From Eledone cirrhosa (lineage: Eukaryota): a stretch of DNA of 64,000 nucleotides. The translations under genes and the position numbers were made by a program. The stretch lies in the NCBI GenBank assembly GCA_964016885.1, contig OZ024742.1, positions 287,494,001 through 287,558,000 on the forward strand. The letters run 5' to 3'. The notes beneath the pieces were generated by a model. The model saw nothing but the letters and a program-made list of their open reading frames with translations, ran no database searches and was not told the origin of the DNA. How positions within the stretch are numbered: position 1 is the first letter of the stretch; every line of letters starts with the position of its first letter. Positions 7,681 through 60,540 of the stretch are shown here, in pieces.

Positions 7681-7681
7681 G

Positions 7682-10668
7682 CCTTTTTGCTGAGAACGCG
7701 AACCACTATGTGCATCCATGTTCGTTTGTGAATGAAGTCAGGAAACGCCAGAGAGGTTCTCTGAGGGCGGCAGTCGACCTCAGCGTAAAGCTCCCAAACC
7801 GCCACTTGTTCATCAAGGACCTCCTGTCTGGAAGAGGCTTCCTCGTGGATACAGGAGCCTCCGTTAGTATTTGGCCGGTCCTTTGCCCTAAGGATACCCC
7901 GTGGAGTCATCCGTTACTTTGCAGGCTGTTAACCACTCGCCTATAAAGACGTACGGACAAATCTCGCTTCCTCTCAAATTCCAAAATCTTCGTAGGGATT
8001 TTAAATGGATTTTTACGGTCGCTGACTTGCCATACCCAATCTTAGCAGCGGATTTCCTTCACAATTTCTCCTTGACTGTGGATGTCCGAGGCCAACGTCT
8101 GGTGGATGACATCACCGGTTTCTCAATTCGTGGCCGAAAAGCCAATGCTCCAACGATCAGCCCAATATTCTTCATCGCTGCCGCTGGAGACGCCTACCAT
8201 TCGTTGTTAGGATCCTTCCCGGAGCTCACCGATGGAAATTTTCGAGTTACTGAGCCAACTCACTCAACCGAACATTTTATTTCCACAACCGGTGCTCCAG
8301 TATTTTCACGTCCACGTCGTTTACCGGCGGACAAGTTAAAGGCAACACGGTCTGAGTTCGACCATATGTTGCAGCTGGGCATTATTCGCCCATCTACGAG
8401 TCCTTGGGCGTTACATATGGTGCCCAAGACTTCTGGCGACTGGAGACCCACTGGGGATTATAGGAGGTTAAACGCGATGACCGTCCCGGATAGATATCCG
8501 ATTCCCTATCCCCAGGATTTCGCATCTTCGTTGCAGGGTTGTAAGATTTTCTCCAAACTCGATTTAGTGCGAGCTTACCACCAAATTCCGGCGAGGAAGG
8601 AAGACATTCCGAAAACAGCTATTGCGACTCCTTTCGGATCCTTCAAGTTTTTGACCATGCCTTTCGGACTCAGCAATGCCGCTAGCACTTTTCAGCGGTT
8701 CATAGACGAGGTCACTCGTGGTCTGGACTTCGTTTATGCATATATAGATGATCTTCTCGTCGCTAGTTCCTCTCCAGAAGAGCATATGCGTCACCTGAAC
8801 CTTTTATTTCGTCGACTCCAGGATTACCGCGTTCGAGTGAATCCCGAAAAGTGTGTTTTCGGATCCGCTTCACTGAATTTTTTAGGTCACATCATCGAAG
8901 CTGAGGGTATTCAACCCCTTCCGTAGCGAGTTAAGGCTATACAGGATTTACCTCCGCCTACTACACTTCACCAGTTGCGTCACTTCCTAGACCTAATTAA
9001 TTTTTATAGACGTTTCGTTCCTCAATGTGCAAAATTACTGTTTTCCCTTACCGAGATTTTGAAAAATCGTCGTAAGAAGAATGAGGATATTTCCTTGACA
9101 CAAGGACAATTCGAAGATTTCCAGACTGCCAAGACAGCACTTGCTAATTCATCTTTGCTAGCCCACCCAGTACCAGAGGCCAAGATTTCGTTTTGTGTCG
9201 ATGCATCTGATACCGCTGTGGCAGCATTTTTACAACAGTATAACGCTAAAAACCAACAACCTTTGGCATTTTTCTCCAGGAAGCTGAAACCAGCTGAAAT
9301 CAGCAGAAACTCGTTACAGCACGTTGGTCGGGAGTTATTAGCCATATATCTGTCGTTGAAATATTTTTCTCATATTCTTGAGGGAAGAAATTTTACGGTT
9401 TTCACTGACCACAAACCTCTGACCTTCACTTTGAGGGATACAGCCGATAAATATTCGCCCAGAGGGACAAGGCACCTTGGTTTCATTTTGCAATTTACAA
9501 ATGATATACAGCACATTGCTGGCTCACTAAATACAGCTGCAGACGCCTTATCACGCTTGCCAAGCAGCTCGATTTCGTCATCCCAGGAGATAGATTTAAG
9601 TCGTTTGGCAGCAGACCAACCTGCACTCGAATCGTTGCGAATTTGCGACTTGCAACCTGAAATATCTGCCCTTGTCGACTACCGACAGGCAGATCCTCTG
9701 CGACGTATCTACGGATTCACCACGACCTTATGTTCCGAGACTCACCGCCGAATTGTGTTCCTTGCTTTGCACAGCATTTCTCACCCAGGATCTTCAGCCA
9801 CAGTAAAGCTCATAACGGCTAGATTTTTCTGGCTAATTATGAGCGAGAAATTACTGCCTGGTGCCGTTCTTGCATACAGTGTCAAAAATCTAAAGTCCAC
9901 AGACACATCCGGACTCCACTTGGTACTTTCAGTACTCCGGATGCTCGTTTTCAACACCGATATCGTTGGACCTTGGCCATTCAGTAGTTGATATTCTTAC
10001 CTTTTGACCTGCATTAGGACATTACCGCCGAGACGATAGCGCGTGCCCTGGTATCAGGGTGGATTGCCCGCTATGGAGTGCCAACCACAATTACCACAGA
10101 CCGTGGTAGGCAATTTGAATCTCATCTTTTCTCAGAGCTGACAAAATTTATTGCCGCTCAACGCATTCGGACCACAGCTTATCATCCTGCTTCGAACGGA
10201 ATGGTGGAACGTTTTCACCGCCAATTAAAGACCGCTCTTCGCGCCTATCCAGACTCTCTACGTTGGAGCGAGTACCTTCCTATTGTGTTATTAGGAATTC
10301 GGTCATCAATAAAGGAGGACCTTGGGTTCTCCCCGGCCGAATTATTGTATGGTGCTCCTCTAGCGTTGCCTGGGCAAATGCTTGCCCCTGTTGATCTTGC
10401 TTTTCAAGATCCTCTTTCCTACGTATCTCGTTTGCGTTCCTATTTTCAGGACTTACCGCCTATGGATACTAGGAAACAAACTATTAAAACTGCAGTCCCG
10501 AGGGATATTGCCTCGTGGACACACGTCTTTGTCAGAAACGACGCGGTTAGTCCACCCCTCACACAACTCTGGACACACCGTGTGTTAACACGTACTGACA
10601 AACATTTTACAGTAGACATTAGGGGATCCAGAGAGACAATTTCGGTGGATAGACTAAAAAGGGCATAC
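7682..10668 (+). mobile_element. Ty3/Gypsy LTR retrotransposon internal region (gag end-PR-RT-RH-IN), pseudogenised, no LTRs visible
   Basis: FLVDTGASVS protease, [37 protein letters not shown] RNase H and [28 protein letters not shown] integrase motifs, in Gypsy order with stops and frameshifts. Confidence 0.95.
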
Positions 10669-10738
10669 ACTTCCGCACGCACACATAGATACCTACATTC
10701 ATACATACATACACATACATACATACACACACACACAT

Positions 10739-10863
<125 letters not shown>

Positions 10864-19830: not shown

Positions 19831-20648
19831 ACTATTTAGTTAAGTATATGTTTTAAAATACTTTAAATGATTCTTCAAATTATTATTACGCTAAGTGCTA
19901 ATGCTTATTTTTGAACTCTTTAATTATTAATTTGCTCCAGAGTAGAAAATGTATATATTTTAAATCAATTATCTCAAATAGAATGGTAAATTGAGAATGG
20001 TTAGGAACAGATTTATAACGCAGTGAAAAAAGATAATGTTACATAATGTTTTGATCAAGTTTTGCTGTTTCACGAATCTATTTCAATATTAGAATCACAA
20101 GTGTTCATGTGTATCCTTATACAGGTATTTCTCCAAAGATGATTTCTATGAAGTTTTGTTCAGAGTAAAGAAATGTTAATATCTCCAGAAAGTCCTGACG
20201 GAAGTGTGACGTAATGTTATCTGGTAAATAGTTTTTTGGGGAACTCGTTATTTTTTTCACACCATCGATATGTTTTGTCTAGAGAAATATTGCACTTGAA
20301 AGCGATCGTAAAATTGAACGACCGATATTTATATATTGTTACCAATAAAAGATAATATTTATAATGCAAAAGCCCCTATAGTACTTTAATATCATAGCTT
20401 TGCTCGTTTTATAGCTGTTATTTCACTTATGGCAGTAGACAGCGAAGCCACAAAAGAAGTAAAACGTGTTAATTCGATAAACTTTTGAGCCATGCAAACT
20501 ATACTACTTCAGGCATGAGTATTTTCATGAGACATTTTTATTATCCAGAGACGTATTTTCTATTCCTACCAAAAATCAACAAATAAATCTGTCATCTCGA
20601 CTCTATAAATGAATGCATTGCCCTCCTTTCCTCGTGCCAACAACTACA

Positions 20649-21660
20649 TACAAGGGTCGGCTGAAAGGTTCATAGGCTGACGAAAATACTCTCATGGAAT
20701 GGGACCAAATGTGGTTTATTTTTCCAACATAGTGCCCCTTGTGCTTCACACACATCTTCCATCGGTGTTTCAGTGATTGGATCCGATTGATGAAGAAGCT
20801 TTCATTTTGTTGGTAAAAAACGTCATCAATAGCAGACATGACGTCATCATCACTACGATACTGGTTCTGAGCCAAGAGGTTTTTCGTGTTGGGGAAAAGA
20901 GGATAGTCAAATGGGGCCAAAACAGGAGAATGGGGAGGGTGATCAACCAGTTCAAAACGACAGTCACGCACAGCAGCCATTGAAGCAAAGAACTTGTGTG
21001 CAGGAGGATTGTCCTGATGAAACAAGTCCCCATTCGTCAGTTTTCCTGGGCATTTGGTCTTGATAGCCTTTCTTAACTGCCTTGGGAAGTTGACATAGTA
21101 CTCTCCATTGATGGTATGGCCCTTTAGAAGATAGTCAATAAACAATGCATTCTGCATCACCCAAAACTGAGGCCATCAGCTTCGCTGCAGATGAAATAAC
21201 CTTGGCCTTCTTTGGAGCAGGCGAGGAGGGTTTTTCCACCGTATGGATTGTTTCTTTGTCTTTAGCTCAAAGTGACGAACCTAACACTCTCCCGGGTGAG
21301 GAAGCGTTCAATGAGACCAGCTGGATCTGCCTCAAACAATGTCAGATTTTCCCGTGATGTGATCAGCCTGGCGTGCTTTTGATTAGGTGTCAGAAAATAT
21401 GGCACCCACCGAACAGAAACTTTCGTCATGCAAAGTTCATTGAGCATAATCTCAACTCTCTCATGTGATATTCTATTTGATTGATAGTCAATTGCTTGTC
21501 ATCCATCACCATGTGGTGAACACGATCAATATTTTTTTTCGGTGGTAGCAGTTGCAGAACGTCCAAATCTTTGGTCATCTTAAAGATTGTCCTTTCCCTT
21601 CATAAATTCAGCTCCCCACTTTTGCAATGTTGACAATGCAATGGAAATTGATCGATACAA
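20649..21660 (-). mobile_element. Mariner (Tc1/mariner) transposase pseudogene
   Basis: KVSVRWVP..LT, IDYL.KGHTINGEYY, FHQDNPPAH and HPPHSPVLAPFDYPLF motifs. TA + CAAGGGTCGGCTGAAAGGTTCATAGGC at 20649 looks like a TIR. Confidence 0.9.
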
Positions 21661-36303: not shown

Positions 36304-39300
36304 ATTTCTTTATTAGCCAAAAGGGCACAAAAGAAGGGGACAAATACAAATGAGGAGTTTACATACAGGTATATGAAAATAAAACTATTAATAAAATAAC
36401 AAATAACAATTGAAATCCCCAATAGGGGGGGGGGCGTTACACAGAGGTTGTACACACCCCGAAAAAATGTACAACCCTGAACTCCAGGAGCACCAAGAGT
36501 GAGTACTCCCCTCCTCTCTTCCTCTTTTTCCTCAACCTGCAGGCTTATATAGAGAGAAGGTCCAACCACTCGGGCCATCTTTGCCACATTCACCCACCTT
36601 TTATAAAATTTGCTGGGGTACAGCACCTCTCTCTCCATCCTCATTCTTCTTCCAAAATGATATTTGAAAAAACGAATCAGTTGCTCGCCGGGGAGTAAGG
36701 TGTCTGACCTCAGCCCTGTTAACCTCGTCCACTATATAACCTCTTTCACCATAGCCATAACACATAGGAAAACCGCCTCTCACTCGTTTTTGAAGGAGGG
36801 TGGCGGTTTGATCATGGCAATGGATTCGGTGGTCAACTGGATTGGTCCCAGCCGCGACAATAGTCGTTCTACATAGATGCAAAGGTCGGTAACGCCCGGG
36901 CAGTGTACAAATGCGTGCGCGACGGTTTCCTCATCGCGCACGCATCTCGGACAGATCTTTTTCGAAGGGTCCCTGCCCGGGCGACGTGTCTGTAGAGCTT
37001 GATTCGAACTGGTAGAGCTCCTCGGTAGCACTGCCAGGCCAGGGACTTTTGGAAGTTGTCCATTGGTCCCGGGCGGAAGGTCCTACCGAACAGACTGGCT
37101 AGTTCGTCCTCCTCTACGCCTAGAGTTTCTCCAAGTACGTCGTCGCACTTGCTGCGGACCAACCCTCTATAGAATGTCGAAGTGGAGTCTCCACTGATCG
37201 CCGGGTCTGTTTGCCAGAGGACTGTGAGCGCCTGAGCACGTTCGATGTGCCAGTCGCCCATTGCCAGTCGCCCATTTTCCTCGGTCTTTGCTTGACCCAG
37301 GACTGCAGCTCGGTCAGCGAGATGAGTCGTGGGAAGGCTCGCCTCACGAACGGGGCCCACACCGGTTGTCCGGTGAGGAATCCGTGGAGGTGCCGCAGTC
37401 TGAGCGCGTGTTTGCGCATCGTCAGCGACGGCATCCCCAGCCCTCCGTTTGAAGGGTGTTGGCAGCAGATGGATCTTCTCACCAAAGGAGCCCGTTTCTT
37501 CTAAAGGAATTGGAAGAGCGCGCGTTCCATTTTGGAGAGCATTTTGGCTGGACAAGGCACGACGGTCAAGCGGTAGTAGATGACGGACGCTAAAAAAGTG
37601 TTCGCCATCTCCGCTCGACCTTTCAAGGATAGTTTGCAGTCGGCCCACTTCTGGGTGAGTGCAAACACCTTGGCCGTCACCTCGTTCTAGTTCTTCTCCA
37701 CCTGGAGGTCTGGACCAAACCAGACCCCGAGCAGCTTTACCGGTCCTTCCGTCCAGCGTCCGACGACGCCATCGGTTTGCCTCCACGTTCCGAGTTGCAA
37801 ACCGACGGATTTGTCCCGGTTCAGCTTCGCTCCTGTGAACCTTTTGTATTCCTCCAGTAAGGTGCCGATCTCCCCGATTTGCGAGGTGCTCGACACCATT
37901 ACTGTTACGTCGTCGGCGTAGGCCGACGCCGCTTTTCGAAGTCCCGGTTCCAGAGGGATGCCCTGTAATAGCTCCAACTTCAGCAGTAGTGGCTCGAGAG
38001 TCAGTACGTACAGAAGGGAGGAGAGAGAGCATCCCCGTCGGATGGGTCGCGTGATATGGAACGGATCCGAGAGGTAGCCGTTGACCTTGACCCTTGAGCA
38101 GATATTGCTGCTGTGTATTGCAGCAATCGAGCCCCTCAACACGGGTCTGAAGCCTGCCGCCTCGAGCACCGCATCCAGGTAACGATGGTCAACCCTATCG
38201 AAAGCCTTAGACTGATCCAAGTTGATCAGCGCCCCACCGAAGTTGATCAGGGCCCCATCCTACCCTCTCTATGATGTATTGCATGAGGTGGAGGTTGTCG
38301 TGTATGGACCTGGTTGGGATTGCGCATGTCTGCGCTTCTCCCACCAGGTTTTCGACGACAAGCGCCAGCCTCTTTGCCAACACCTTGGCCAAAATCTGTA
38401 ACTCTGTGTTTAGCAGGGTTATGGGCCGGAAGTTGCTTATGTCATCACCCTTATTCTCGCCCTTCCTGACTAACGTGACTACGCCCTTGGTCACAGAACT
38501 GGGAATTCTCCCGTTCTGATGCCAGTTGCAGTAGACCGCTTCCAGGAGACCGAAGAACAAGTCTGACATTGTTACGTAAAATTCGTAGGGTAGATCGTCG
38601 AGACCTGGAGATTTGCGTTTGCCGTATTGGCTCAGCGCGTCCCCTATCTCAGCGGCCGAAATCGGCCTTTCGCAGAACTTCGCCTCGCTGTCCGAGAGTC
38701 GCGGTAGGCCGTCGAGGTATGGACCGAAATCCAAAGCCTCTCCCGGCGCGCCGCCCTGCCCGAACAGTTGAGGAAAGTGCCGCTGAAAGGCCGCGCACAT
38801 CTGCTTCGGCTCACGTATCACGCGTCCGTTTTGGTCCTTCAAAGACTGAATCGTGGACTTGTTGCCACTTTTCGCCTCCGTCACTCGGGCCCAGTTAACA
38901 ACTTTGGCTTCCTCGTTTCCCAGAGCACGTATTTTGCTTCTGACAACGCAGCATTCATTCTTTGCGTCGAAGAACTGGTCCAAGGCCGTTCTCGTCGCTA
39001 ACACTGGCTACGTTGCCACTCGTAAGTGCCTCTTCTACTTTATCTACCAGTTCCTTTTCGGTTTTAGTTCTATCTAACACTAATTCTTTACTAAAACCTA
39101 TCGAGTCTAATCTAACTGCACTCTTGAGAGAGTACCACCAACTGTTGTTGACAATGGCCCCCTCAAGTGCTGCTTAACTAAAGTGCTAATCCGTCTACTG
39201 TAAGCTTTGTATGTCGGTAACGACAAGTTCAGCGTCCAGTAGCCGAGTCCCTGTCTATGGGTTTTGTCAAGGTTGACTAAGCAGGTCACTAATTTGTGAT

Positions 39301-42189
39301 CTGAATAGACAACCATGAACATTTGTGGACAGCTTAACATGTCCCTATCCTTCTTTCTAACTAGAACCCTATCTAGGTACGATCTAGATGTTCCGCTGCG
39401 ATTAGTCCACGTCCACAGTGGCACAGTCGGAAAATCTAGTCGATAACTATCAGCCAGGTCAAATCGGCCGATTCACTGTTTGAGGCTGTTACATCGGGAG
39501 ATGCTCCCACATAGTCCTAACGTGCATCTAGGATTCCATTTCAGTCCCCTACTAACAGCAGGGAGCGAGACGTTCCCAGAAAAGTCTCTAGACGTTTGAA
39601 GAAGTCTAGCCGTGGTGTCCCGGATTGGGCATATGCGGCCACCAGCCTGAAGGCTCCACCTTCACTACCGTCAACGTCTAGGACCACCAGTCGACTCCCC
39701 GGGTCCAGATGTACCGTCTGTGTTACGAGGTCCAGGTGTTTCCGCAGCAAAACGGCAACCCCACCCCCACCTCCCGGCTGATAGAGAGATGCGTAGATCT
39801 CAAAGTCGTCGAAGATGGGGGCCAGTTGTCGCTCGCTGTGGATCCTGGACTCGCAAATGGCTACTACATCCATACTGTGCGACCTGAGGTCGTTTAAGAG
39901 TTTGCCCTGTTTCCAGGGAATCCCCAGGCCGCGTACTCTCACACATCCAACTCTTATATTGGCCATGTTGGTGCTGAAAAGTTAAAAGAAGAGGAAAAGA
40001 AAGCACTCACCTCTTCGTCTCCTGGGGACCAGGCTGCACAATTTCCATGGGGGTGTTGGAGGGGTTGTTTGCTGGGGTGGTGGTGGCTGGTGGGGTGGGG
40101 AGGGGGTGTCTGGTGGGAGGGGGAGGGGGTGGGGAAACATTTTAACAGGACTCGATTGTAGGGTTTGACGCAGGGGTTACCTACGTCGTTAGGAATTTTT
40201 TCTTTTAACTGTTTATGTGTGTCCATGGAGGTCCTAATCATTTTAAGATTAGGATTCTCCGAAGAGTGTGTAAAAGTTTTCCCTTCGGTCTCCACCGAAG
40301 GGTTTTTATATATGGTGTCTGTTAAAGTTTTATTGTTAGTATTTATGTATGTGTAATATTTTTGTTGTGTTGTGTTGCTTTTTGTCTGTGGTTCTTGTGT
40401 GTGTTTACGTTTTGAAGTAGGTGTTTTGTTTTCAGGAGGGGGTGTTTTTGTTTGCGCTGTTTGCGTCGCTTGTGTTGGTGTTTGTGTGTTTGTTGCATTT
40501 TTGTCTGTGTTATGTCTTTTCTTTTTTCTTTTTACTAGTCGGAAAGGCTCTCCCTCATCGTCACCCAGTGACGATGATGAGGCCTCATCCGTGTTGTTGG
40601 GGAGGGGTACATTTTGGGGAGCTGTTAAGTGTGTGGGTGTTTCTGGAGTTGTTTTAGGTGGGGAGGGGTTGGGTGGGACTGTGTTTGTCGTTTGTTTTGT
40701 TGTCAGTATTTTTTATGTTGTTGTGGTGGTGGTGATGATTGTTGTGCTGGTGTTGCAGGTGTTGGGAGTAGTGCCTTTTTGGGGCTAGTTAGCCGAGGAC
40801 AGGAAGCTCTCAGGTGACCCCTGCTTAAGTAGTGGTAACATGAGGGCCGCCTACCCTCGACCGAAATGTTTATCTATATAAGCCCATCCAGCAGCACACG
40901 TTCCGGGATCCTAGCTATTCGTTCTGGTGTCATTTGGACCAGAACTTCCAGGCTAGTTCCGCTGAACAGGTCGCCGGAGGACTTACCTACCGATATTATA
41001 TAGTCTTTTTCGAGGATTAAAAATCCACATAGTACCCACCAAATATCAATATTTGGTGTGATACTTTGGATTTTTATTTTCTGTGTTCTTTTCCCCATGT
41101 AAGTGGGGAAAAAGGTGAACAGGTGTGACACAATTGGTGACACAGAATATTCCTGTGCCGTCAATTGGTCTTTCATTAGAATGGATAAACTCCCGTAGAG
41201 TCTACCCTTCTGAATAAAAGCAATGTCTTTTAAGGCATTTTTTAAAGCCAACTCAATTTCGCCTTGTGAAAGTTGAGTCGGTTTCGGGTTTTGTTTGAGA
41301 CTGTCCTGAAAATCACAGTTTTCAAGGCAGCTTCTCTTCGCAAATCTGGGGGAGAGTTTATGGAGAATGATCCGTTCTCCCCAAAAGTTACATATTGTCT
41401 GACGTTATACAAAAACTCATTTGCATTTGAAATATCTACCGGAGTGTAGCCTACCGCTTTCTTTACTGTTTGCGCAAACGATACTTTGTCGTTTACTTCC
41501 TTGTTGCAGTTATTGATCTGGTTGTTGTTATTATTGTTCTTGTTGTTGATGTTGTTCTCGTTTTTTCCGTTGTTGGTGTTGTTGTTCTTCTTCTTCTTCT
41601 TGGTTGTGGTTTTGTTGTCGTTGTTGTTCTTCTTGTTCTCGTTGTCACTGTTGTTGTTGATGGCGTTGTTTGGGTTTGTGCCATTCACAGTGTTCGTGTT
41701 GATGGTGCTGGTGTTGTTGTCGGGGTGTGTTTTAAACATATCGATGTGTTTCAATGAGGCGGTGCGAGCTGCCTGTTGGCTTGACACTTTTGCCGTCCCT
41801 CCACCACCTCTGTCTAATTGTTGGCTGACGGTTTTGTTGTTGTTGTTGTTTTTGTTGCTGTTGTTGTTGTTGGTGATAGCAGCAGGCAGGCAGCCTTCAT
41901 CTGCTACTAGTACTGTGGAAGGTGAGATTAACAGCCCACCTCCACAATTCTCTGATGTATTTTTCGTGAAGATGAGGTCAAAGAATTTGGCCATTTTGGC
42001 TATATTCAAAATTCCGGTAGAAATTTTGTGGGATTTCTCCGTTTTCCGCCCTGATGGGCTTATGGGGTTGCTACCACCTACAAAGTGTAGCATGGCAGCT
42101 TATCGCACAAAATGGTGTAAGAATGTAGATTCAGTTCATGCAATTTCCAATGAAATTAAAACATTTACTCACCAGCGCATTTTCCACGT
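36304..42189 (-). mobile_element. Full-length Tx1/L1-clade non-LTR retrotransposon (ORF1 + APE-RT ORF2, frameshifted)
   Basis: ORF1 has a degenerate knuckle RPSCYHYLSRGHLRASCP. ORF2 starts at 39966 with APE motifs (VRGL, YLDRV, SDHK), then KSPGLDDLP.EFY, FRPITLLN, DQSKAFDRVDH and YADD. The 15-bp TSD ATAATAGAAAGATAA lies at 36289-36303 and 42190-42204. Confidence 0.93.
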
Positions 42190-44236: not shown

Positions 44237-44927
44237 AAAGTTAGTCCTTGATCAGTGATCTTCCAACCATCATTGGTATTTCATCGCTTTAAAGACCATA
44301 TACCTCCAGTTGGTGCGAGCAACGGCTAAAAATAGTCGTTGGGACACGTAAATAAAGGGGACACGAGAGTGTAAACAAACAAAGATGGTGAAGCAACGAA
44401 AAGTAAGGAAGAAGGAGTCAAGTCCCAAATTTCCATGAATATAAATTCGGTGAAATCGTGAACGAGAGAGAATAAAGACCATCAAACCTGGTTTGAATGT
44501 GAGCAAGGAAGGAATTCCGTACAGGTCTAACGGGAGGAAGAAGGGATCTAGTCTGTGAATTCGGTGAACGTAAGTTCTGTGAAATCGTAGACGAGAGAGA
44601 AAAAAAGCGACCTGCCTGACCAAGGGTGCGAAAGAAAAGAATTACGCACAGGTCAAACGGGAAGAAGGAGGAGGAGGAGAGGTAGTAACAGTGAATGAGT
44701 GAGTGAAGGGTGAGGAAGAGGCTAACAGAGAGAGTGACTGCTAGAGAGGGTAATGATACAGAGAAAGAGGAAGCAGTAAGAACGAAATAGACGGGTCACA
44801 GCGGGGAAAAAAATGTGTAAATATGAGAATAAACGTGCTACGTGGTTGCTAATGGGTTACATATGAATAAAGTTAGTCCTTCATCAGTGATCTTCCAACC
44901 ATCATTGGTATTTCATCGCTTTAAAGA

Positions 44928-44983
<56 letters not shown>

Positions 44984-45105
44984 GGTAATGATACAGAGAA
45001 AGAGGAAGCAGTAAGAACGAAATAGACGGGTCACAGCGGGGAAAAAAATGTGTAAATATGAGAATAAACGTGCTACGTGGTTGCTAATGGGTTACATATG
45101 AATAT
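44237..45105. mobile_element. Non-coding element with permuted direct repeats in (TA)n
   Basis: 44237-44302 recurs at 44868-44931, and 44748-44870 recurs at 44981-45104. A half HHR box (TCA-CTGATGA) lies on the minus strand at about 44882. Confidence 0.65.
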
Positions 45106-45484: not shown

Positions 45485-45543
<59 letters not shown>

Positions 45544-45547
<4 letters not shown>

Positions 45548-46173
45548 AAATGAGATTAATATCTCCACAGGTACTAAGTACCCACGGAAATATATAGGGT
45601 GTCTATAATACAGTTGTTGTTCAATGGTATTAATTAGAGACACCAGAACTATAAAATTGAAATGAGCTGAACAAGTAAATTTTAAACATTCTTTTAAAAT
45701 AAATGAAAATACAATTTAAATATTCACCTATCCAAATTGCTTTTACCGACCGTTTCGCCTCACAAAAGATTGGGAATCCAAAGGACTTCCAATGGAAAGA
45801 TCGGCTCTTCAGAAAGCTATTTCCATTACATACGATTTAAAATCCCATAGCAAGCAAATACACCGCTAACTGCCAGCTAGTGAAAGATCGAGTGGGCCGT
45901 TAAAAATTGACCTACACGTGAACTGGACATCTAGTGAAAGCAGGTATATTATAGACTTGTTGTATGCCACTTCTAAAAATAGCAGCTAGGTACAACGTTT
46001 TTTTCTCTACACATAGGAGAATAAACATAAAATGAGATTAATATCTCCACAGGTACTAAGTACCCACGGAAATATATAGGGTGTATATAATACAGTTGTT
46101 GTTCAATGGTATTAATTAGAGATACCAGAACTATAAAATTGAGATGAGCTGAACAAGTAAATTTTAAACATTC

Positions 46174-46180
<7 letters not shown>
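45544..46180 (-). mobile_element. Retrozyme-like element: about 480-bp unit with about 155-bp terminal direct repeat and internal HHR
   Basis: ACATAAAATGAGATTAATATCTCC...CATTCTTTTAA occurs at about 45543-45697 and about 46025-46179. (TA)n on both flanks. Confidence 0.8.
45739..45817 (-). ncRNA. Type I hammerhead ribozyme
   Basis: GCTTT-CTGAAGA-GCC...(ATTGGAA/TCCCAAT)...GGC-GAAAC-ggtcg-GTA-AAAGC. Confidence 0.8.
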
Positions 46181-46207
<27 letters not shown>

Positions 46208-46290
46208 CGTTATTCCGGGTTGAATCGGAGGTAACCACAGTAAGTAAGGTACTCAATACATAGCAGAGTATAACAGTTTTAATATAGATG

Positions 46291-46341
46291 AGATTCTACA
46301 GGACTAGAACTGTTTCATTCATTAGAAATCATCAGGAATCT
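46291..46341 (-). ncRNA. Type I hammerhead ribozyme at a PLE relic terminus
   Basis: AGATTC-CTGATGA-tTTCtaatGAAt-GAAAC-AG-ttctagtc-CT-GTA-GAATCT. Confidence 0.7.
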
Positions 46342-46869
46342 GGGTATCAAAAAATAAATATGGTATTTATAGGTCTCTACAAGTGGTAGGAGAGGGTGGG
46401 GAGTGGGATGGGTGCAGGTCATTGGTTGATAGAGAAGGGAATTCATTAAAAGCTAATTCTACATAGCTATAGTTAATTTATATTTATTTATGTTTTTAGA
46501 GTAACAAAGGCAGACAGAATTCTATAAACAGGTTCCGGATGGCATACCATTCCTTGTCAATAAGTTTCTCTTAAGCTAGCAGATGTCTATAAAATCAGTG
46601 GGGGGTCATTCATGCTCGATAGAATTAAAGAAAAGGGAGATTCTTTAAAAGCTAAAGTCATTAAGGTTCTACTAAGTGACAAAGGTCTAGGGAATTCTGC
46701 AGACAGATTCAAAATACTGAGTGCATATCTTACTATTATCTTCGAACTTCTCTTAAACTAATCAACAATATGCCAAATCAACAGACACATTCACAAAAAA
46801 CCAAAAAAACCCAAAAAAACAAAAAAACAGAAAAACAAAAAAAACCGCACCTAAAAAACAAAAAAACAC

Positions 46870-47063
46870 ACATACTCACTCACACACTTACGCGCAACCA
46901 TAAACACACACATAAACACATATACACACATAAAAACACACACACATATATAAAAAATATATAAATATATACAAATATATATTCATGTACACACACATAC
47001 ATACACACGTACATACATACATACATATATAAAAAATACATATACACATATACATACGCACAC

Positions 47064-47140
<77 letters not shown>

Positions 47141-47201
47141 TATACACATATATATATACACACATACACACACACACACATACATACATATATATATATA
47201 C

Positions 47202-47236
<35 letters not shown>

Positions 47237-47437
47237 CATACATATATATACAAATATATATATATATATATATACATACACATATACATACATATATATA
47301 TATACACACACACACAGATACACACACACATACACATACATACACACATACACACATATATACACAAATAAATACACTCACACGCATACATACAAACACG
47401 AGTATACATATGTATAAATATCTATACACACACACAT

Positions 47438-47482
<45 letters not shown>

Positions 47483-47517
47483 CATATACACACATACATA
47501 CACACATATATATACAC

Positions 47518-47568
<51 letters not shown>

Positions 47569-47661
47569 TACATACACACACACACATATATATACATATA
47601 TATATATCTCTATATACACACATACAAATACATATATATATATATATATACATATATATAC

Positions 47662-47699
<38 letters not shown>

Positions 47700-47855
47700 C
47701 CATACATACACAAACATACACATGCATACACAGACCTATACATAAATATACACATATATATACAGAGATATAACGCACATATACACACACATATATACAT
47801 ACACACATATATATATATATATATAAAAATATATATATATATATACACACGCATG

Positions 47856-47928
<73 letters not shown>

Positions 47929-47996
47929 GCGCGCATACACACATACACACACCCACACACAAAATATATATACACACACACATTCTCTCTCTCATG

Positions 47997-48039
<43 letters not shown>

Positions 48040-48079
48040 ATATACACAGACACATACAAATACATACATACATACACAT

Positions 48080-48128
<49 letters not shown>

Positions 48129-48341
48129 TATACATATATATATACACACACATGCATATACATATACACATACATATACACACACATACATACACACACA
48201 CACACACATATATGTACAAATACACTCACAAATACACACACATACACACATATATACATATACATACACACAAACACATACATATACACATATATATATA
48301 TAAATACACGCACACATATACACACATACGCACACGCACAC

Positions 48342-48388
<47 letters not shown>

Positions 48389-48474
48389 AATATATACACA
48401 CACATATATACAAACATACATATACATACATATATATATATATACATATATATATACATATACATATACATACA

Positions 48475-48524
<50 letters not shown>

Positions 48525-48664
48525 TATACATATATATACATATACACACATACATACATACATACATACATATACACAAACACATACAAACATATACCTA
48601 CATAAATATACACACATAAAACACGTATTCACACAAACATATATATATACACATATATATATAT

Positions 48665-48743
<79 letters not shown>

Positions 48744-48880
48744 TATATACACACACATATATATATACATATACATATATATATATATATACACACATAC
48801 ACATATATATATATATATATACACACAACTCATACACAAATACACATATACAAACAAATATATACACATACAAGTAAATA
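46870..48880. repeat. 2-kb compound (TA)n/(CA)n microsatellite
   Basis: Direct reading. It is the source of many spurious ORFs. Confidence 0.97.
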
Positions 48881-49050
48881 GGTACTCAATAAATATACGC
48901 ATATACACAGGCACATAAAGACACCTCTACAGGCAGAAAAAGTAGATACAAAAGAGGTACTCACATGACCATAGTGGCCGTATTTCAGGTTGAGGAGGGG
49001 TGGGGGTAGGGTGGGGAGGAGGTATAGGGGCCAATAGGGGGAGGTCGTTT

Positions 49051-51132
49051 TTAGCCATCGGGCTTTAACACTGGCTTAAAGTGTTTGAATGTTGCAAAGT
49101 TCTTGTGCATGCAGTTCGGGCAGTGTTCAGAGAGTTTGTTCAGTAGCGGGCCCTTGGCGAATAAAATTTCGTAGCTCTCTGAAATACAAAGGTCGCAGCC
49201 CTTGTGTCCTCCGTCGTAAGAGCGCGCTTTCTGGAGTATTTTCCAATTAAGCGTGAAGGGGGTGGAGTTCCTTTTGAGGTCCCAAACGTAGGAGGCGAGT
49301 GTTGTTTGGTTTGATTTATCCGGAGTTCTGAAGGAGTGGGTATGGGCATACCAGCGGGTCTTAAAGGTGTTGGAGGTCATGCCGATGTAAGTTTTTTTGC
49401 AATCCTCGGTGCCCGAGATGACATCGCATTTGTATACGATGTCGTTTGTGAGGCATTTGTTTTCTAGTGGGCATGTTTCCTTATTTAGGCAATTACATAG
49501 AGCCCCAGTCCGGGGATTGGTTTCGGAGGTGGTTGGCTTATTTAGTTTAGAGTTGTGGTTGGCTATATTCCTAGCTAGGTTAGGTGTGGTGGAGTAAGAC
49601 AGTCTTATAGTGTTCTTATTAAAGATGGTGTAGTACCTATGTTGTATGGGGAAGTGTAATTTCAGTAAAGTGAAGAAAATCCTAGCTATCGGAGTAGATA
49701 CCTCTCTATTGAAGGGAGGGTTGTACCAGCTAATCTGCCTATGTCTATTCCTCCTCTGCAATTTTGCGGTGGTTTCTAGGTAAGTTATCTTATCTTTAAA
49801 TCCGCTACGGGCTAGGGCGTCATTGTAGTAGGTGGCAGATGCATTAAAAATATCTTTGTTGGCGGAGAGGCCAGATATTCTAATAGAGACGCTTTTTACT
49901 AGGTTATCAGTAATGTTTTGGGGGTGGTTTGAATTAACATTAATATATTTAAGGGACTCGTTAGGTTTGTGGTACGGGTAATAGAGGGAAGTATCTAGGT
50001 CGAGAGTGACGTCTAAGAAGTTGGCCCTAGTCAAATTAGAATCTATAGTTATACTAAATCCTAGATTAGAGAAGAAAGAGCTTAAGTTTTTCCGAAACCC
50101 ATCGGTGGTTCTGGGGCTAACCTTATGCAGGGCGAAGAGGCCGTCGTCTCGGTATAAACCTCCAGTAAGGCCGGTAAAGAGGTTCTTCAGGTTATGTAGG
50201 ATGTACAGGCCCACAAGGTCGCTAATTTCAGCCGAGTCACTCGCCCCCATGCTAACGTCAAATGGGGTCTGAGATTTCTTGTTCATCCAGTAAGATCCAT
50301 CGTGGTATAGAAAGGTCTTACGAGCGTGGAGGATAATAACTTGCTCGGCATCGGTAATGGTGGTAAAATTCCTGGCAAAGTTAATTGCGTCCTTCAGGAG
50401 GGGCTCCGAGATAGAGGCATAGTAGTTTTCTATGTCGAGTTGCAGGAAGCGAGTGTGGTGTTTATCGGGTAATTCTTGGAACCATGATATTGCCTCAGAT
50501 GTTCTACTCCAGAGTGGAAGTGGTGAGGTCGCCCGCAATAATGGTAGAACTCTATCCAGGATCTTCTTACTGATAGAGCCGATGTCAGAACGAGTGGGGT
50601 TGATAAGTCTGACTGATGGTTTGTTGAGGAAGTTTCCCTTATGGTCCTTCAGGGTAAAGTGCGGGGTCTTTACCCTTAAAGGTTCGGTTCGGTCATGTAA
50701 TTTAAGGGACTTGGCGATTTCTTTTCCGGCCGCGTTTGTCTCAGTCAGCGCCCTCTCTATTACCTTTTTGTAGGTGGTCGTGATGGTATTTTTTGCCAGC
50801 TTATTGTAGGTCTGTGGGTCTACCTCATAAACGTTTTTGGTTTTATCGGAGGAGACATAAAGATTAGGGGATTTTTTTATATTCCGTAATTCGGCATTTA
50901 AGTAGGCCTGGAATGGTGTGGTGGCTCTACGGAATTTAATATCCTTGATCATCTTGAAGAGGTCTTCCTCAAATGGTTGGAGTAGGCTGTTGGTGGGTGG
51001 TGTCTTATTTGTTTTGAAGCCGAACTTCTCATCATTGGTAGATGCTACATCAGGGTTGTCGAGGAAGAAGGCCCTCCATCTAATTCGCTTGATGAACTCG
51101 TCGGTACGTCTGATGAGTGTTTTTAAGTATAG
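49051..51132 (-). CDS. Penelope-like element ORF: RT + Cys linker + GIY-YIG endonuclease (probably Hydra clade), 5'-truncated
   Basis: SDKT, DIENYY, FDVSMGASDSAEISDLVG, GLYRDDGL, FLDV, CNCx5C and IVY..TYIG.T..FKTRW..H motifs. The frame stays open about 60 codons upstream of the ATG at 50952 (LYLKTLIRRTDEFIKRIRWRAFF). Confidence 0.95.
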   Translation of the reverse strand, partial: LYLKTLIRRTDEFIKRIRWRAFFLDNPDVASTNDEKFGFKTNKTPPTNSLLQPFEEDLFKMIKDIKFRRATTPFQAYLNAELRNIKKSPNLYVSSDKTKNVYEVDPQTYNKLAKNTITTTYKKVIERALTETNAAGKEIAKSLKLHDRTEPLRVKTPHFTLKDHKGNFLNKPSVRLINPTRSDIGSISKKILDRVLPLLRATSPLPLWSRTSEAISWFQELPDKHHTRFLQLDIENYYASISEPLLKDAINFARNFTTITDAEQVIILHARKTFLYHDGSYWMNKKSQTPFDVSMGASDSAEISDLVGLYILHNLKNLFTGLTGGLYRDDGLFALHKVSPRTTDGFRKNLSSFFSNLGFSITIDSNLTRANFLDVTLDLDTSLYYPYHKPNESLKYINVNSNHPQNITDNLVKSVSIRISGLSANKDIFNASATYYNDALARSGFKDKITYLETTAKLQRRNRHRQISWYNPPFNREVSTPIARIFFTLLKLHFPIQHRYYTIFNKNTIRLSYSTTPNLARNIANHNSKLNKPTTSETNPRTGALCNCLNKETCPLENKCLTNDIVYKCDVISGTEDCKKTYIGMTSNTFKTRWYAHTHSFRTPDKSNQTTLASYVWDLKRNSTPFTLNWKILQKARSYDGGHKGCDLCISESYEILFAKGPLLNKLSEHCPNCMHKNFATFKHFKPVLKPDG

Positions 51133-51550
51133 TTAGATGCGGAAGTAAAAGAGGTAAGGGAGTGTAATAATTAAAGGAAAGTATCAATCTCGATATATTT
51201 ATAAAAATGTAACAATAAATTAGAAAGAAAAATATATTAAAGAAAAGAAGACAAAAAAAGGGGGTACATACATACACAGACACGCATATCTCACAAAAGA
51301 AACGCAAAAATATACATGCTTATATACACATCCATACGTTCAGTACATACATACACACACACACACACACACATACTTACACTCACGCATATTGACCTGT
51401 TTGCATGCACACGCATAAAAATGAGTAAGTAAAAAGGGGGGGGGGGGAGAAGAAAAAAGGAACAAAACATAAAACCTAGATGTCAAAACACGGATATAAA
51501 GACACATACACATACGCATAATATATACATACACACACACACACATATAT

Positions 51551-51595
<45 letters not shown>

Positions 51596-52011
51596 CACGC
51601 ACGCGCGCGCACATACGTAGTCGCTCATGTATATATATAGAAAGTATACACACATTAAGGCGTTCAGCCATATTGATACAGGGTGTAAAAAACTTGTGGA
51701 TAAGTAAGTACAAATATAAAATTGTAAGATTGGCTGCGCAAAAATAAAAAAATAAAAATAAAAATGAAAAATATATCTGAATTGGAAAACACAAATGACA
51801 AGTGTGATCAGTTAGTGAAGGAAAAAAGGAAGTAAAAAAAGGGGAAGTAAAAAATGGAAAGTGAATCGGAGAATAAAGGGGGGGGGGGTTATTGGTGGAT
51901 GTGAAGTAAAAATAAAAAAAAAAATAAGAATAAAAATAAATGAAATTATTGACAAGGATAAAAATGAAAGTAAGTCAGAAAGGGTAATTAAAAAGAGAGA
52001 ATAATAAGAGT

Positions 52012-52425
52012 TTATGGAGGATAAGTATCTGAAAGTGTGTTAAGTTTATATGAGCTGGAAAGCAGGTGTGATTTCATGTGTGGGCAACTGGTGAAAATTT
52101 CCGTCTTTGTGTTCAGGCAGGTCTTTGGTGATTTTAGATTTTGCAATATCCAATATTTTTCATTTATGCAGAGCGTGCATTTTCTTGTTCCTCTAGCATA
52201 TTTTTTAGATTGGTTCAAAATTGACCAATCTAATTTATATTGGATGCCTTGGTCTTTCAAATCCCAAATTCTGCTAGCCAGAGCTGTTGTAAATCTTTTT
52301 TCTGGATGTCGAAAAGATGCGACATGTGAGTAATAACGCGTTTTGAATTTGTCTTGCGTCATACCCACATATCGTTCACTGGTGGCTGGATGGTTGTTGC
52401 TGATGGTTGTCACTTTAGCCGCATA
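52012..52425 (-). pseudogene. GIY-YIG endonuclease C-terminal fragment of PLE family B
   Basis: IYAAKV...YVGMTQDKFKTRYYSH..SFR....T.LAS.IWDLK..CTLCINEK..LN...CPH, homologous to but diverged from the 49051 ORF. Confidence 0.9.
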
Positions 52426-52532
52426 TATCCACAAGTTTTTTACACCCTGTATCAATATGGCTGAACGCCTTAATGTGTGTATACTTTCTATATATATACA
52501 TGAGCGACTACGTATGTGCGCGCGCGTGCGTG

Positions 52533-52603
<71 letters not shown>

Positions 52604-53353
52604 ATATATGTGTGTGTGTGTGTATGTATATATTATGCGTATGTGTATGTGTCTTTATATCCGTGTTTTGACATCTAGGTTTTATGTTTTGTTACTTTTT
52701 TCTTCCCCCCCCTTTTTACTTACTCATTTTTATGCGTGTGCATGCAAACAGGTCAATATGCGTGAGTGTAAGTATGTGTGTGTGTGTATGTGTGTATGTA
52801 TGTACTGAACGTATGGATGTGTAAGTGTGCATGTGTATATAAGGATGTATATTTTTTCGTTTCTTTTGTGAGATATGCGTGTCTGTGTATGTATGTACCC
52901 CCATTTTTGTCTTCTTTTCTTTAATATATTTTTCTTTCTAATTTATTGTTACATTTTTATAAATATATCGAGATTGATACTTTCCTTTAATTATTACACT
53001 CCCTTACCTCTTTTACTTCCGCATCTAAGCGTACGTGTATGTAGGTGTGTTTATGCGCGCGCCTTCATATTCATATTCTTATGATGTATCTATTCTGTCT
53101 GTAGATTACAGACATACAGATACATTTGCCCTAAATTTTATATTTACGCACACTTTTTCACTATACGTATACACATGTGCATACACATATATGCACATCT
53201 GTGAGCGTATATACATACATATACACACACCTAACTATATTTCTTGATAGATTTTTATATATTTCAATTTCTAATTCATTTGTCTATATCCTTTTTTTTT
53301 TTTTTTTTTTGATTTTCTTGATGAGACTTTCCAAGTATTTACCCATGTTTTAT

Positions 53354-57908: not shown

Positions 57909-60540
57909 GGTAGATAGTGTAGAAGAGGCAATTAGAAGTGGCAACGTAGCCAGCGTGCTAGCAACGAGAACGGCCATGGACCAGTTCTTCGACGCAAAGC
58001 ACGAGGGCTGCATTGTCAGAAGCAAAATACGTGCTCTGGGAAACGAGGGAGCCAAAGTTGTTAGCTGGGCCTGAGTGACGGAGGCAAAAAGTGGCAACAA
58101 GTCCACGATTCAGTCTTTAAAGGACCAAAACGGACGCGTGATACGTGAGCCGAAGCAGGTGTGTGCGGACTTTCAGCGGCACTTTGCTCAACTGTTCGGG
58201 AAGAGCGGCGCGCCGGGAGGGGCTATGGATTTCGGTCCATACCTCGACGGCCTACCGCGACTCTCGGACAGCGAGACAAAGTTCTGCGAAAAGCCGATTT
58301 CAGCCGCTGAGATAGGGGACGCGCTGAGCCAATGCGGCAAACGCAAATCTCCAGGTCTCGACGGTCTACCCTACGAATTTTACGTAGCAATGCCGGACTT
58401 ATTCTCCGGTCTCCTGGAAGCGGTCTACTGCAACTGGCAACAGAATGGGAGAATTCCCAGTTCTGTAACCGGGGGCGTGGTCACACTAGTCAGGAAGGAC
58501 GAGAATAAGGGGGATGACATAGGCAACTTCCGGCCCATAACTCTGCTAAACACAGAGTTACAGATTTTGGCCAAGGTGTTGGCAAAGAGGCTGGCGCTTG
58601 TCGTGGGTAACCTGGTGGGAGATGCGCAGATGTGCTATCCCGTCCAGGTCCATCCACGACAACCTCCACCTCATGCGATACATCATAGAGAGGGTTGGGA
58701 ACGAACCCGGCTTTGGTGGGGCCCTGATCAACTTGGATCAATCTAAGGCATTCGATAGGGTCGACCATGGTTACCTGGATGCGGTGCTAGCGGCGGCAGG
58801 CTTCGAACCCGTTTTCAGGGGCTGGATCAATGCCATGCACAGCAGCCGCATCTGCTCTCGGAGCCGTTCGAAATCGCGCGGTCCATCCGACAGGGGTGCC
58901 CTCTCTCCTCCCTTCTGTATGTAATGACTCTAGAGCCACTGCTGCGGAAGTTGGAGTTGTTGCAGGGCACCCCTTTGGAACTGGGATTGCGGAAAGCGGT
59001 GTCAGCCTACGCCGATGACGTAACAGTAATGGTGTCGACGGCCTCGGAAATCGGGGCGATCGGCACCTTACTGGAGGAGTACGAAAGGTTTACAGGAACT
59101 AAGCTGAACCGGGACAAGTCGATCGGTCTGCAACTCGGCACGTGGAGGGGCAGATCGATGCCTTCAGATGGCGTCGTCGGATGCTGGACGGAAGGACCGG
59201 TAAAGCTGCTCGGGGTCTGGTTTGGTCCGGACCTCCAGGTGGAGAAGAACTGGAACGAAGTGACGGCCAAGGTGTTTGCACTCACCCAGAAGTGGGCCGA
59301 GTGCAAACTATCCTTGAAAGGTCGAGCGGAGGTGGCGAACACTTTTATAGCGTCCGCCATCTACTACCGCTTGACCGTCGTGCCTTGTCCAGCCAAAACG
59401 CTCTCCAAAATGGAGCGCGCGCTCTTCCAATTCCTTTGGAAGAGGCGGGCTCCTTTGGTGAGAAGATCCATCTGCTGCCAACACCCTTCTAACGGAGGGC
59501 TGGGGATGCTGTGGTTGACGATGCGCAAACACGCGCTCAGGCTGCGGCATCTCTACGTATTCCTCACCGGACAACCGGTGTGGGCCCCGTTCATGAGGCG
59601 AGCCTTCCCACGACTTGTCTCGCTGACCGAGCTGCAGTCCTGGGTCAAGCAAAGACCGAGGAAAATGGGCGACTGACACATCGAATGTGCTCAGGCGCTC
59701 ACAGCCCTCTGGCAGGCGGACCCGGCGATCAGCGGAGACTCAACTTCGTCATTCTATAGAGTGTTGATCCGCAGCAAGTGCGACGACGCGCTCGGTGAAT
59801 CTCTAGGCGTAGACGAAGATGAACTGGCCTGTCTGTTCGGTAGGACCTTCCGCCCGGGACCGATGGACAACTTCCAAAAGATCTGTCCGAGGTGCGTGCG
59901 TAACGAAGAAACCGTCGCGCACGCATTAATACACTGCCCGGGCGTCACTGACCTGTGGGGCTATGTAGAACGACTATTGTCGCGGGTGGGACCAATCCGG
60001 TTGACCACCGAGTCCATTGTCATGATCAAACCGCCACCCTCCTTCAAAAACGAAGGAGAGGCGGTTTTCCTTTGTGTGATAGCTATGGCGAAAGAGGTTG
60101 TATGGTGGACAAGGTTGAAAGGGCTGAGGTCAGACACCTTTCTCTCCGGCCAACAACTGATTCTTTTTTTCAAATACCACTTTTGAAGAAGAATCAGGAT
60201 GGAGAGAGAGGTGCTGTACCCCAGCAAGTTTTATGAAAGGTGGGTGAAAGTGGCGAGAATGGCCCGAGTGAATGGGCCTTCTCTCTATATCAGCCTGTAG
60301 GCTGAGGAAAAAGAGGAGGAGAGGAAAGGAGTACAAACTCTTCGTACTCCTGGAGATGAGGGTTGCACATTTTTTTTCGGGGGTATGTGTTACTCATATG
60401 AACTGTCTCCTCCTATTAGGGAAAATCGACTAATTTTTAAATTACATTTGTGATAATAATTTACACGTTTTTATTGTATGTAAACTTCCCCCTTTGTATT
60501 TGTCCCCTTCTTTTGTGCCCCTGTGGCTAATAAAGAAACA
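57909..60540 (+). mobile_element. 5'-truncated copy of the Tx1-like element
   Basis: Highly similar to 36304-39050 in reverse (KSPGLDGLPYEFY, YADD). Flanked by (TATC)n and ends AATAAAGAAA. Confidence 0.93.

What the first reader, a model, noticed from the sequence alone, without database searches (positions are those of the whole stretch)
45544..46180. 1.3-unit permuted element (about 480-nt monomer) with an intact HHR: footprint of a circular or multimeric RNA template
Seen: a about 155-bp terminal direct repeat around a non-coding unit with one canonical HHR (CUGAAGA/GAAAC/GUA) outside the repeat, inserted cleanly in (TA)n. Inference: such terminal redundancy is expected if RT copies a circular or tandem RNA more than once, as proposed for retrozymes. 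The alternative is a tandem pLTR of a truncated PLE.
Basis: partly seen in the sequence, partly recalled or inferred. Interest (0 to 1): 0.75.

Follow-up and report, generated by a model that had tools for sequence, protein, structure and literature searches.

The report
Penelope-copied hammerhead retrozyme family
This 636-base insert is one of hundreds of copies of a non-coding 482-base repeat carrying a hammerhead (predicted self-cutting) RNA motif, and the copies end at two fixed sites next to TA repeats, so a Penelope-type jumping-gene enzyme likely copied them, probably from a small RNA circle, which makes this a new family of a known kind of element.

Summary
The structure is real: 636 nt (45544-46179, minus strand), a 482-nt non-coding unit plus a 154-nt direct repeat (151/154 identical), with one type I hammerhead (HHR). 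'Intact' and 'cleanly' need trimming. This copy has a private stem III change, and its 5' (TA)14 is the 3' flank of a young Hydra-type Penelope element (PLE). The family has at least 530 HHR-bearing units. Ends are not freely permuted: 302 of 352 arms end at two fixed sites 105 nt apart, mostly against (TA)n, while 5' ends scatter. Of 65 head-to-head pairs with both ends at those sites, 62 use one of each (20 further pairs unclassifiable). That is the published PLE 'tail' footprint. No arm runs into a PLE ORF, so it is a closed non-autonomous unit. Arms read through the HHR cut site, reach at most about 2 units, and their repeats share rare variants, so one unit is read more than once. A circle is likely, but re-priming on linear RNA is not excluded, and no RNA run was available. 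Verdict: a new family of animal non-LTR retrozyme / non-autonomous PLE. The scan already reported this two-armed pattern for other families in this genome.

The parts
45544..46179 (-). Whole insertion, 636 nt = 482-nt unit + 154 nt; 5'-truncated single arm ending at site B
46026..46179 (-). Upstream copy of the direct repeat (unit positions 1-154)
   Evidence: 151/154 identical to the downstream copy
45544..45697 (-). Downstream copy of the direct repeat; carries site A (about 45650), the tail and site B (about 45545, the end used here)
45739..45817 (-). Type I hammerhead: 5-bp stem I, CUGAAGA, 3-bp stem II base with a 43-nt insert holding an 8-bp hairpin, GAAA, short near-palindromic stem III (family ACC-GUC-GGU; this copy ACG-GUC-GGU), GUA cut predicted after 45744
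45545..45649 (-). 105-nt 'tail' between the two fixed 3' ends (A = unit 48, B = unit 153)
   Evidence: tail concept from PMC11167929 and PMC8557442
45559..45593 (-). Conserved 16-bp hairpin just upstream of site B, topped by GUAY-UKA-GUAC, a motif shared with the tail of the neighbouring PLE and other TA-targeted repeats; likely RT recognition signal (inferred). Second copy at 46041-46075
45487..45543 (.). (TA)n target at the 3' end
46180..46207 (.). (TA)14 at the 5' end, shared with the 3' end of the neighbouring PLE
46208..51140 (-). Neighbour, not part of the unit: young 5'-truncated Hydra-type PLE (ORF 51132-49051, 693 of 758 aa open frame; microsatellite-rich 3' UTR; pLTR with its own HHR near 46297-46341 and two fixed ends 67 nt apart). 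Candidate type of mobiliser

Best explanation
This is one 5'-truncated copy of a dispersed non-coding family with a 482-nt hammerhead-bearing unit whose copies end at two fixed sites against (TA)n, and it was likely inserted by target-primed reverse transcription by a Hydra-type Penelope enzyme, probably reading a ligated RNA circle. Steps: (1, inferred) a copy with two hammerheads is transcribed, cut at both GUA sites and ligated by a host ligase. (2, inferred) The PLE protein binds the hairpin region and cuts both strands of a (TA)n tract. (3, shown as a footprint) cDNA starts at site A or site B, and in two-armed insertions almost always one arm at each. (4, shown) cDNA runs back across the hammerhead cut site and stops at scattered points, median about 340 nt and at most about 2 units; passing one unit creates the direct repeat. 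(5) The window copy began at B and stopped after 636 nt. With one hammerhead and a weakened stem III it is predicted to be unable to release a monomer by itself.
For: Fixed 3' ends: 189 arms at A, 113 at B, 50 elsewhere, of 352 deduplicated arms in 246 loci. In the set picked only on the HHR motif: 65 A, 23 B, 17 other of 105. 175/189 A ends and 108/113 B ends abut (TA)n, against 109/352 5' ends. Head-to-head pairs: 62 AB, 2 AA, 1 BB, 20 unclassified of 85 (p 1e-15 against one half). This matches two internal RT start sites that define the PLE tail, cutting of both strands and a predicted dimer (PMC11167929), and the inverted 5' copy with a tail at one end plus (TA)n targeting by Hydra PLEs (PMC8557442). 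The neighbouring coding PLE shows the same two-end pattern and shares the GTAYTKAGTAC motif between its ends. 249/302 A/B arms pass the first HHR cut by more than 15 nt and 26 pass a second; 7/312 spanning segments have a deletion at the joint. Direct repeats share 68 rare variants (62 pairs) against 17 in closest-relative controls (60 pairs), and no difference is consistently upstream versus downstream. HHR pairs: 92.3% of cells paired, 32 cells changed on both sides, 0/500 shuffles as high, slid controls 26-52%. Three sampled young coding PLE families are present with near-identical copies.
Against: No RNA evidence was obtainable for expression, cleavage or a circle. No arm exceeds about 2 units (0 of 352 at or above 964 nt), whereas published retrozymes often form multimers (PMC7229834). 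Frangieh et al. found uncleaved RNA to be the main template in vitro and saw no reads ending at the HHR site (PMC11167929). The best-matching other copy is closer than an insertion's own repeat in 50 of 62 cases (94.7% vs 92.2% mean); a best-of-many effect can explain this, but it gives no positive support. No A-to-G editing excess on the sense strand (16.9 vs 16.6 per 1000). The exact mobilising PLE was not found: the unit profile found no homologous PLE end in 90 loci of three families. A 78-nt array made from the neighbour PLE's end has joints between a priming site and the region just upstream of the HHR, which suggests tandems can arise here without an HHR-defined circle.
Confidence: 0.55

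Rival explanations
1. Same PLE-driven two-site priming, but the template is linear uncleaved read-through RNA from 1.3-2-unit copies, and length is regenerated by template jumping or re-priming; the hammerhead cuts rarely and no circle is needed.
For: Uncleaved RNA is the dominant PAc substrate and HHR mutants still insert (PMC11167929). No arm exceeds about 2 units. 13 5' ends fall at unit 347-354, just upstream of the HHR and about 30 nt after a conserved ATATTT, a possible transcription start (weak). The 78-nt array joints look like run-off and re-priming.
Against: Linear copying alone can only shorten copies, yet 67/302 arms are 500 nt or longer across subfamilies about 15% apart. 12 arms exceed what a transcript from unit 350 could template. 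The HHR joint is nearly scar-free and repeats share rare variants. HHR helices were kept by compensatory change.
Confidence: 0.33
2. The copies are 5'-truncated tandem pLTRs of a coding PLE.
For: Fixed 3' ends, tail, inversions and (TA)n targets are those of PLEs. 27 of 246 loci have a PLE ORF fragment nearby.
Against: Long arms wrap into the next unit instead of entering an ORF (67/302 at or above 500 nt). Same-strand ORF hits within 900 nt are separated by microsatellite or are mid-ORF junctions (L018, L106, L296). No similarity to the ends of three sampled coding families. Only part of the family was sampled, and descent from an extinct PLE by internal deletion stays possible.
Confidence: 0.07
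3. The 154-nt repeat is a DNA-level local duplication of a monomeric SINE-like insert, or a satellite remnant.
For: None specific; (TA)n tracts are unstable.
Against: 62 direct-repeat pairs show the same in-register wrap with different 5' breakpoints and fixed 3' ends, and copies are dispersed over many chromosomes.
Confidence: 0.03

Closest known systems
Animal non-LTR retrozymes (Cervera and de la Pena 2020, PMC7229834, passages read; Li, Clavereau and Pollet 2026, bioRxiv 10.64898/2026.07.22.740005, parts 1-3 of 5 read)
   Same: Non-coding, low-GC unit of a few hundred nt with one type I HHR per unit, head-to-tail, many dispersed copies, proposed PLE mobilisation through circular RNA.
   Different: Here no arm exceeds about 2 units and most are under one unit; the unit (482 nt) is at the long end; HHR stem II has a 43-nt insert. 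Fixed priming sites and the one-A-one-B rule were not described for retrozymes in the text I read. No homologous parent pLTR was found, unlike 24 of 57 Xenopus families. Expression is untested.
EN+ Penelope-like elements, Hydra clade (Craig et al. 2021, PMC8557442, passages and section 11 read) and PAc (Frangieh et al. 2024, PMC11167929, parts 1-2 of 4 read)
   Same: Partial tandem (pLTR), 5' truncation, inverted 5' copy, tail at one end, (TA)n target, HHR upstream of two RT start sites.
   Different: No ORF. The tail is 105 nt rather than 30-40. The ends sit at AUUUUAU(A) sequences resembling the target, whereas PAc starts at non-homologous AC-rich sites.
PLE hammerheads with short palindromic helix III (Cervera and de la Pena 2014, PMC4209133, passages read)
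   Same: Type I, 5-bp helix I, short near-palindromic helix III suited to dimeric folding; that paper already proposed circles as templates for more-than-unit copies.
   Different: Oversized helix II insert; the first helix II pair alternates between G-C and U.U across subfamilies.
Non-autonomous Chlamys elements such as MRC1 (PMC8557442, passage read)
   Same: Non-coding PLE derivatives that form pLTRs and head-to-tail insertions.
   Different: Those share 3' sequence with their autonomous partners, and most Chlamys lack canonical HHRs.

Membership tests
Animal non-LTR retrozyme | Type I hammerhead in each unit | tested here: met
   core columns 93-97% conserved apart from the variable position 7
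Animal non-LTR retrozyme | Non-coding, low-GC monomer of a few hundred nt | tested here: met
   six frames closed; 34% GC, period 442-495
Animal non-LTR retrozyme | Tandem copies with at least two complete HHRs (dimer to multimer) | tested here: inconclusive
   12 of 352 arms carry two intact-core HHRs and none carries three; the window copy has one. About 250 loci were sampled out of more than 500 units.
Animal non-LTR retrozyme | Self-cleavage of the RNA | not testable with these tools
   The window copy's minimum-energy fold lacks the core; forcing it costs 5.8 kcal/mol against 3.2 for family copy L095
Animal non-LTR retrozyme | Expressed as linear and circular monomer RNA | not testable with these tools
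   no RNA holder listed
Penelope-like element insertion anatomy | Partial tandem with 5' truncation and fixed 3' ends | tested here: met
   302 of 352 arms end at A or B; 5' ends spread over the unit
Penelope-like element insertion anatomy | Inverted 5'-truncated copy with a tail at one end only | tested here: met
   85 head-to-head pairs against 3 convergent; 62 of 65 classifiable pairs are AB
Penelope-like element insertion anatomy | (TA)n target (Hydra, Naiad) | tested here: met
   283 of 302 A/B ends abut (TA)n
Autonomous PLE | RT plus GIY-YIG ORF within the element | tested here: not met
Non-autonomous derivative of a named PLE family | Sequence homology with the ends of an autonomous partner | tested here: inconclusive
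   No alignment to three sampled families; only an 11-nt hairpin motif is shared. Other families were not sampled.
Hydra-clade PLE (neighbour at 46208-51140) | RWK, DKT, CxCX5C linker, CxxC and CxH in a C-terminal EN, HHR, (TA)n target | tested here: met
   RWR, DKT, CNCLNKETC, CDLC, CPNCMH read from the ORF against the text of PMC8557442 section 11; no tree built; Pfam gave only a sub-threshold GIY-YIG hit

The most novel reading that the evidence does not exclude
Each two-armed insertion is made by a Penelope RT dimer loaded on one hammerhead-cut, ligated 480-nt RNA circle, one subunit starting at site A and the other at site B on the two ends of a cut (TA)n tract. The 62-of-65 rule, the rare variants shared between arms and the small pile of 5' ends at the cut site would then be a genomic record of circle-templated retrotransposition and of hammerhead cleavage in vivo, steered by a GUAY-UKA-GUAC hairpin shared across PLE families.
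Probability: 0.35. Interest if true: 0.62.

Novelty: new member of a known kind. Interest (0 to 1): 0.38.

Why it matters
How PLEs regenerate their more-than-unit copies, and how animal retrozymes are mobilised, are open questions; circles were proposed in 2014 and 2020, but the papers read here do not show reverse transcription from one. This family gives a short, ORF-free substrate with two mapped start sites, a candidate 11-nt recognition hairpin and young coding PLEs in the same genome, so circle and linear templates can be compared directly in vitro. The class itself is published, and the scan has found the same pattern in several other families of this genome, some with long arrays that test the circle idea better.

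Tried and rejected
Rfam scans: no hammerhead family matched the element; the whole-window listing showed mostly microsatellite noise, and 130 lower rows were not displayed. RNA evidence: no RNA holder listed. The three coded contig runs laid on the region could not show an empty site and serve only as support for the family base at 45751. A-to-G editing scars, a lead from an earlier scan note: none in this family. The earlier 467-nt family is unrelated to this unit. First arm mapping with an unrotated profile dropped short segments and was redone. 5' ends at the HHR cut: 13 at unit 434-440 against 4.9 expected (p 0.002), but windows at 347-354 (13) and 382-393 (12) are as high, so this is kept as a weak hint. 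Within-insertion identity against best other copy did not discriminate. Parent PLE search: three coding families sampled, none homologous. 3' transduction by the neighbour PLE: the unit profile had no hit in 40 loci of that family, 30 of which do not reliably reach its 3' end. Alignment A1 holds one non-homologous row (L194), which was left in the counts. The 952-nt arm L207 is two insertions of different subfamilies (68% alike) and is not counted as the longest. A promoter was not established.

Full report
Observation. On the minus strand the insert spans 46179 to 45544: a 482-nt unit followed by its first 154 nt again (151/154 identical), between (TA)n tracts. It is non-coding. Unit positions below count from 46179. 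A type I hammerhead lies at unit 363-441 with all core bases and a GUA cut site after unit 436 (window 45744). Rfam did not recognise it, probably because stem II carries a 43-nt insert (inference). The fold is supported by the family: in 54 aligned sequences 92.3% of paired cells are standard pairs, 5 pairs change on both sides (32 cells, 0/500 shuffles as high; 71/500 for the pair count) and slid controls give 26-52% (related sequences can beat shuffles, so this is support, not proof). The window copy differs from the family at one stem III base, G for C at 45751, so it is core-intact but weakened.

Family. A DNA search of the 3.0-Gb own genome scored 40 of 2629 candidates and returned 58 matches at 80-100% identity. 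Exact patterns gave 110, 129, 261 and 530 matches, with 0 in each reversed control. I held 274 loci of the family; a profile search gave 401 arms, 352 after removing duplicates and arms at locus edges, in 246 loci.

Ends. 189 arms end at site A (unit 35-55, mode 48), 113 at site B (145-156) and 50 elsewhere, many at apparent later insertions or internal deletions. In the 105 arms from loci picked only on the hammerhead motif the split is 65, 23 and 17. 283 of 302 A/B ends abut (TA)n, against 109 of 352 5' ends. 5' ends scatter over the unit. There are 85 head-to-head pairs and 3 convergent ones; 62 pairs are A plus B, 2 are AA, 1 is BB and 20 have an unclassified end. Craig et al. describe partial tandems, an inverted 5'-truncated copy and a 30-40 bp tail often at one end only (PMC8557442). 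Frangieh et al. show that the tail lies between two internal RT start sites, that both strands are cut and extended, and that the protein is predicted to be a dimer (PMC11167929). The family therefore carries the PLE insertion footprint, with a 105-nt tail.

Autonomy. 67 of 302 A/B arms are 500 nt or longer and wrap into the next unit; none reaches 964 nt and the longest single arm is 947 nt. PLE ORF fragments occur in 27 of 246 loci, but same-strand ones within 900 nt are behind microsatellite or joined mid-ORF. The unit is a closed, non-autonomous element in the sample examined.

Mobiliser. Directly upstream, across (TA)14, ends a young coding PLE (ORF 51132-49051; full frames 758 aa; top 150 matches 96-100% identical). 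Its protein has the motifs listed for the Hydra clade. It has its own hammerhead, two fixed ends 67 nt apart and inverted arms that use one of each in several loci. It does not align to the unit, but both carry GTAYTKAGTAC between their two ends, as does at least one more TA-targeted family (272 matches in the loci held against 2 and 2 for controls; the count is inflated by how the loci were chosen). A second coding family (window remnant 52012-52632) lies in loci that share a hammerhead of the same build, with a long stem II, ACC-NNN-GGU stem III and GUA (22 matches in 25 loci). No sampled family is the sequence parent. I infer a Hydra-type partner, not a named one.

Template. 249 of 302 arms pass the first hammerhead cut site by more than 15 nt and 26 pass a second; 7 of 312 spanning segments have a deletion there, insertions not counted. 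A cut linear monomer cannot be the main template unless the enzyme jumps without a scar. Direct repeats within an arm differ at 622 of 9069 sites, with no consistent upstream-versus-downstream difference, and share 68 rare variants against 17 in closest-relative controls; inverted arms differ at 605 of 10413 sites and share 45. Since linear copying only shortens copies, some step must read one unit twice (inference). A ligated circle, proposed for PLEs in 2014 (PMC4209133) and shown to accumulate for coral, mussel and axolotl retrozymes (PMC7229834), is the simplest source; 12 of 352 arms have the two hammerheads needed to release a monomer. Against it: no arm beyond about 2 units, uncleaved RNA as the main substrate in vitro, no editing trace, an uninformative best-relative comparison, and a 78-nt array whose joints suggest re-priming. 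13 5' ends at the cut site against 4.9 expected are a weak hint of cleavage in vivo, because two other windows are as high.

Comparison and verdict. It works like a non-autonomous PLE and fits the sequence-level definition of an animal non-LTR retrozyme, a class recently argued to derive from PLEs (bioRxiv 10.64898/2026.07.22.740005); cleavage and circular expression are untested. Five paper searches did not list a description of this family or a count of the one-A-one-B rule, but the library lacks most subscription papers and I saw no supplements. Earlier scan notes report the same two-armed, two-site pattern for 310-, 422-, 467- and 520-600-nt families in this genome; none matched this unit by sequence. 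My reading of the ends was formed before those notes. New member of a known kind; interest 0.38.

Noticed in passing
G000:C28 from about 30,497,100 (L318-L324); also C1:350,200,389 (L317): A satellite of 77-78-nt units, each the hammerhead-to-site-A piece of the neighbour PLE's end (1524 junction matches in the genome, all on one strand; listed ones span over 30 kb with a repeat near 9.2 kb). It starts as one arm of a two-armed insertion in (TA)n.
   Followed up: partly
window 46208-51140 (-): Young Hydra-type PLE family whose 3' UTR carries about 2 kb of degenerate (TA/TG)n as part of the element. Depth of its last 140 nt is roughly tenfold that of the rest of the pLTR in the laid contigs, with 5' ends just upstream of the hammerhead and a TATAAATA about 35 nt further up, a possible transcription start.
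   Followed up: partly
window 51476-52632 (-): Remnant of a second young PLE family, broken by an inverted duplication; loci of its relatives hold a hammerhead with a long stem II and ACC-UCU-GGU stem III.
   Followed up: partly
flanks of L004, L014, L019, L028, L064 and others: A further abundant TA-targeted repeat ending about 57 nt after GTATTGAGTAC, with a palindromic upstream part; several other type I hammerhead families also lie in the flanks.
   Followed up: no
window 44742-44869 and 44977-45104: 128-nt direct repeat (99%) around a (TA)25 tract, spacing 235.
   Followed up: no
window 7584-10740 (+); 36869-41404 and 58075-60186; 20603-21175: A broken Gypsy-like pol, two copies of a LINE-like element and a mariner-like transposase fragment, judged by eye from the ORF list; labels recalled, not tested.
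   Followed up: no
window 55953 (+): Short diverged copy of the neighbour PLE's tail with the GTACTGAGTAC motif between (TA)n tracts.
   Followed up: no
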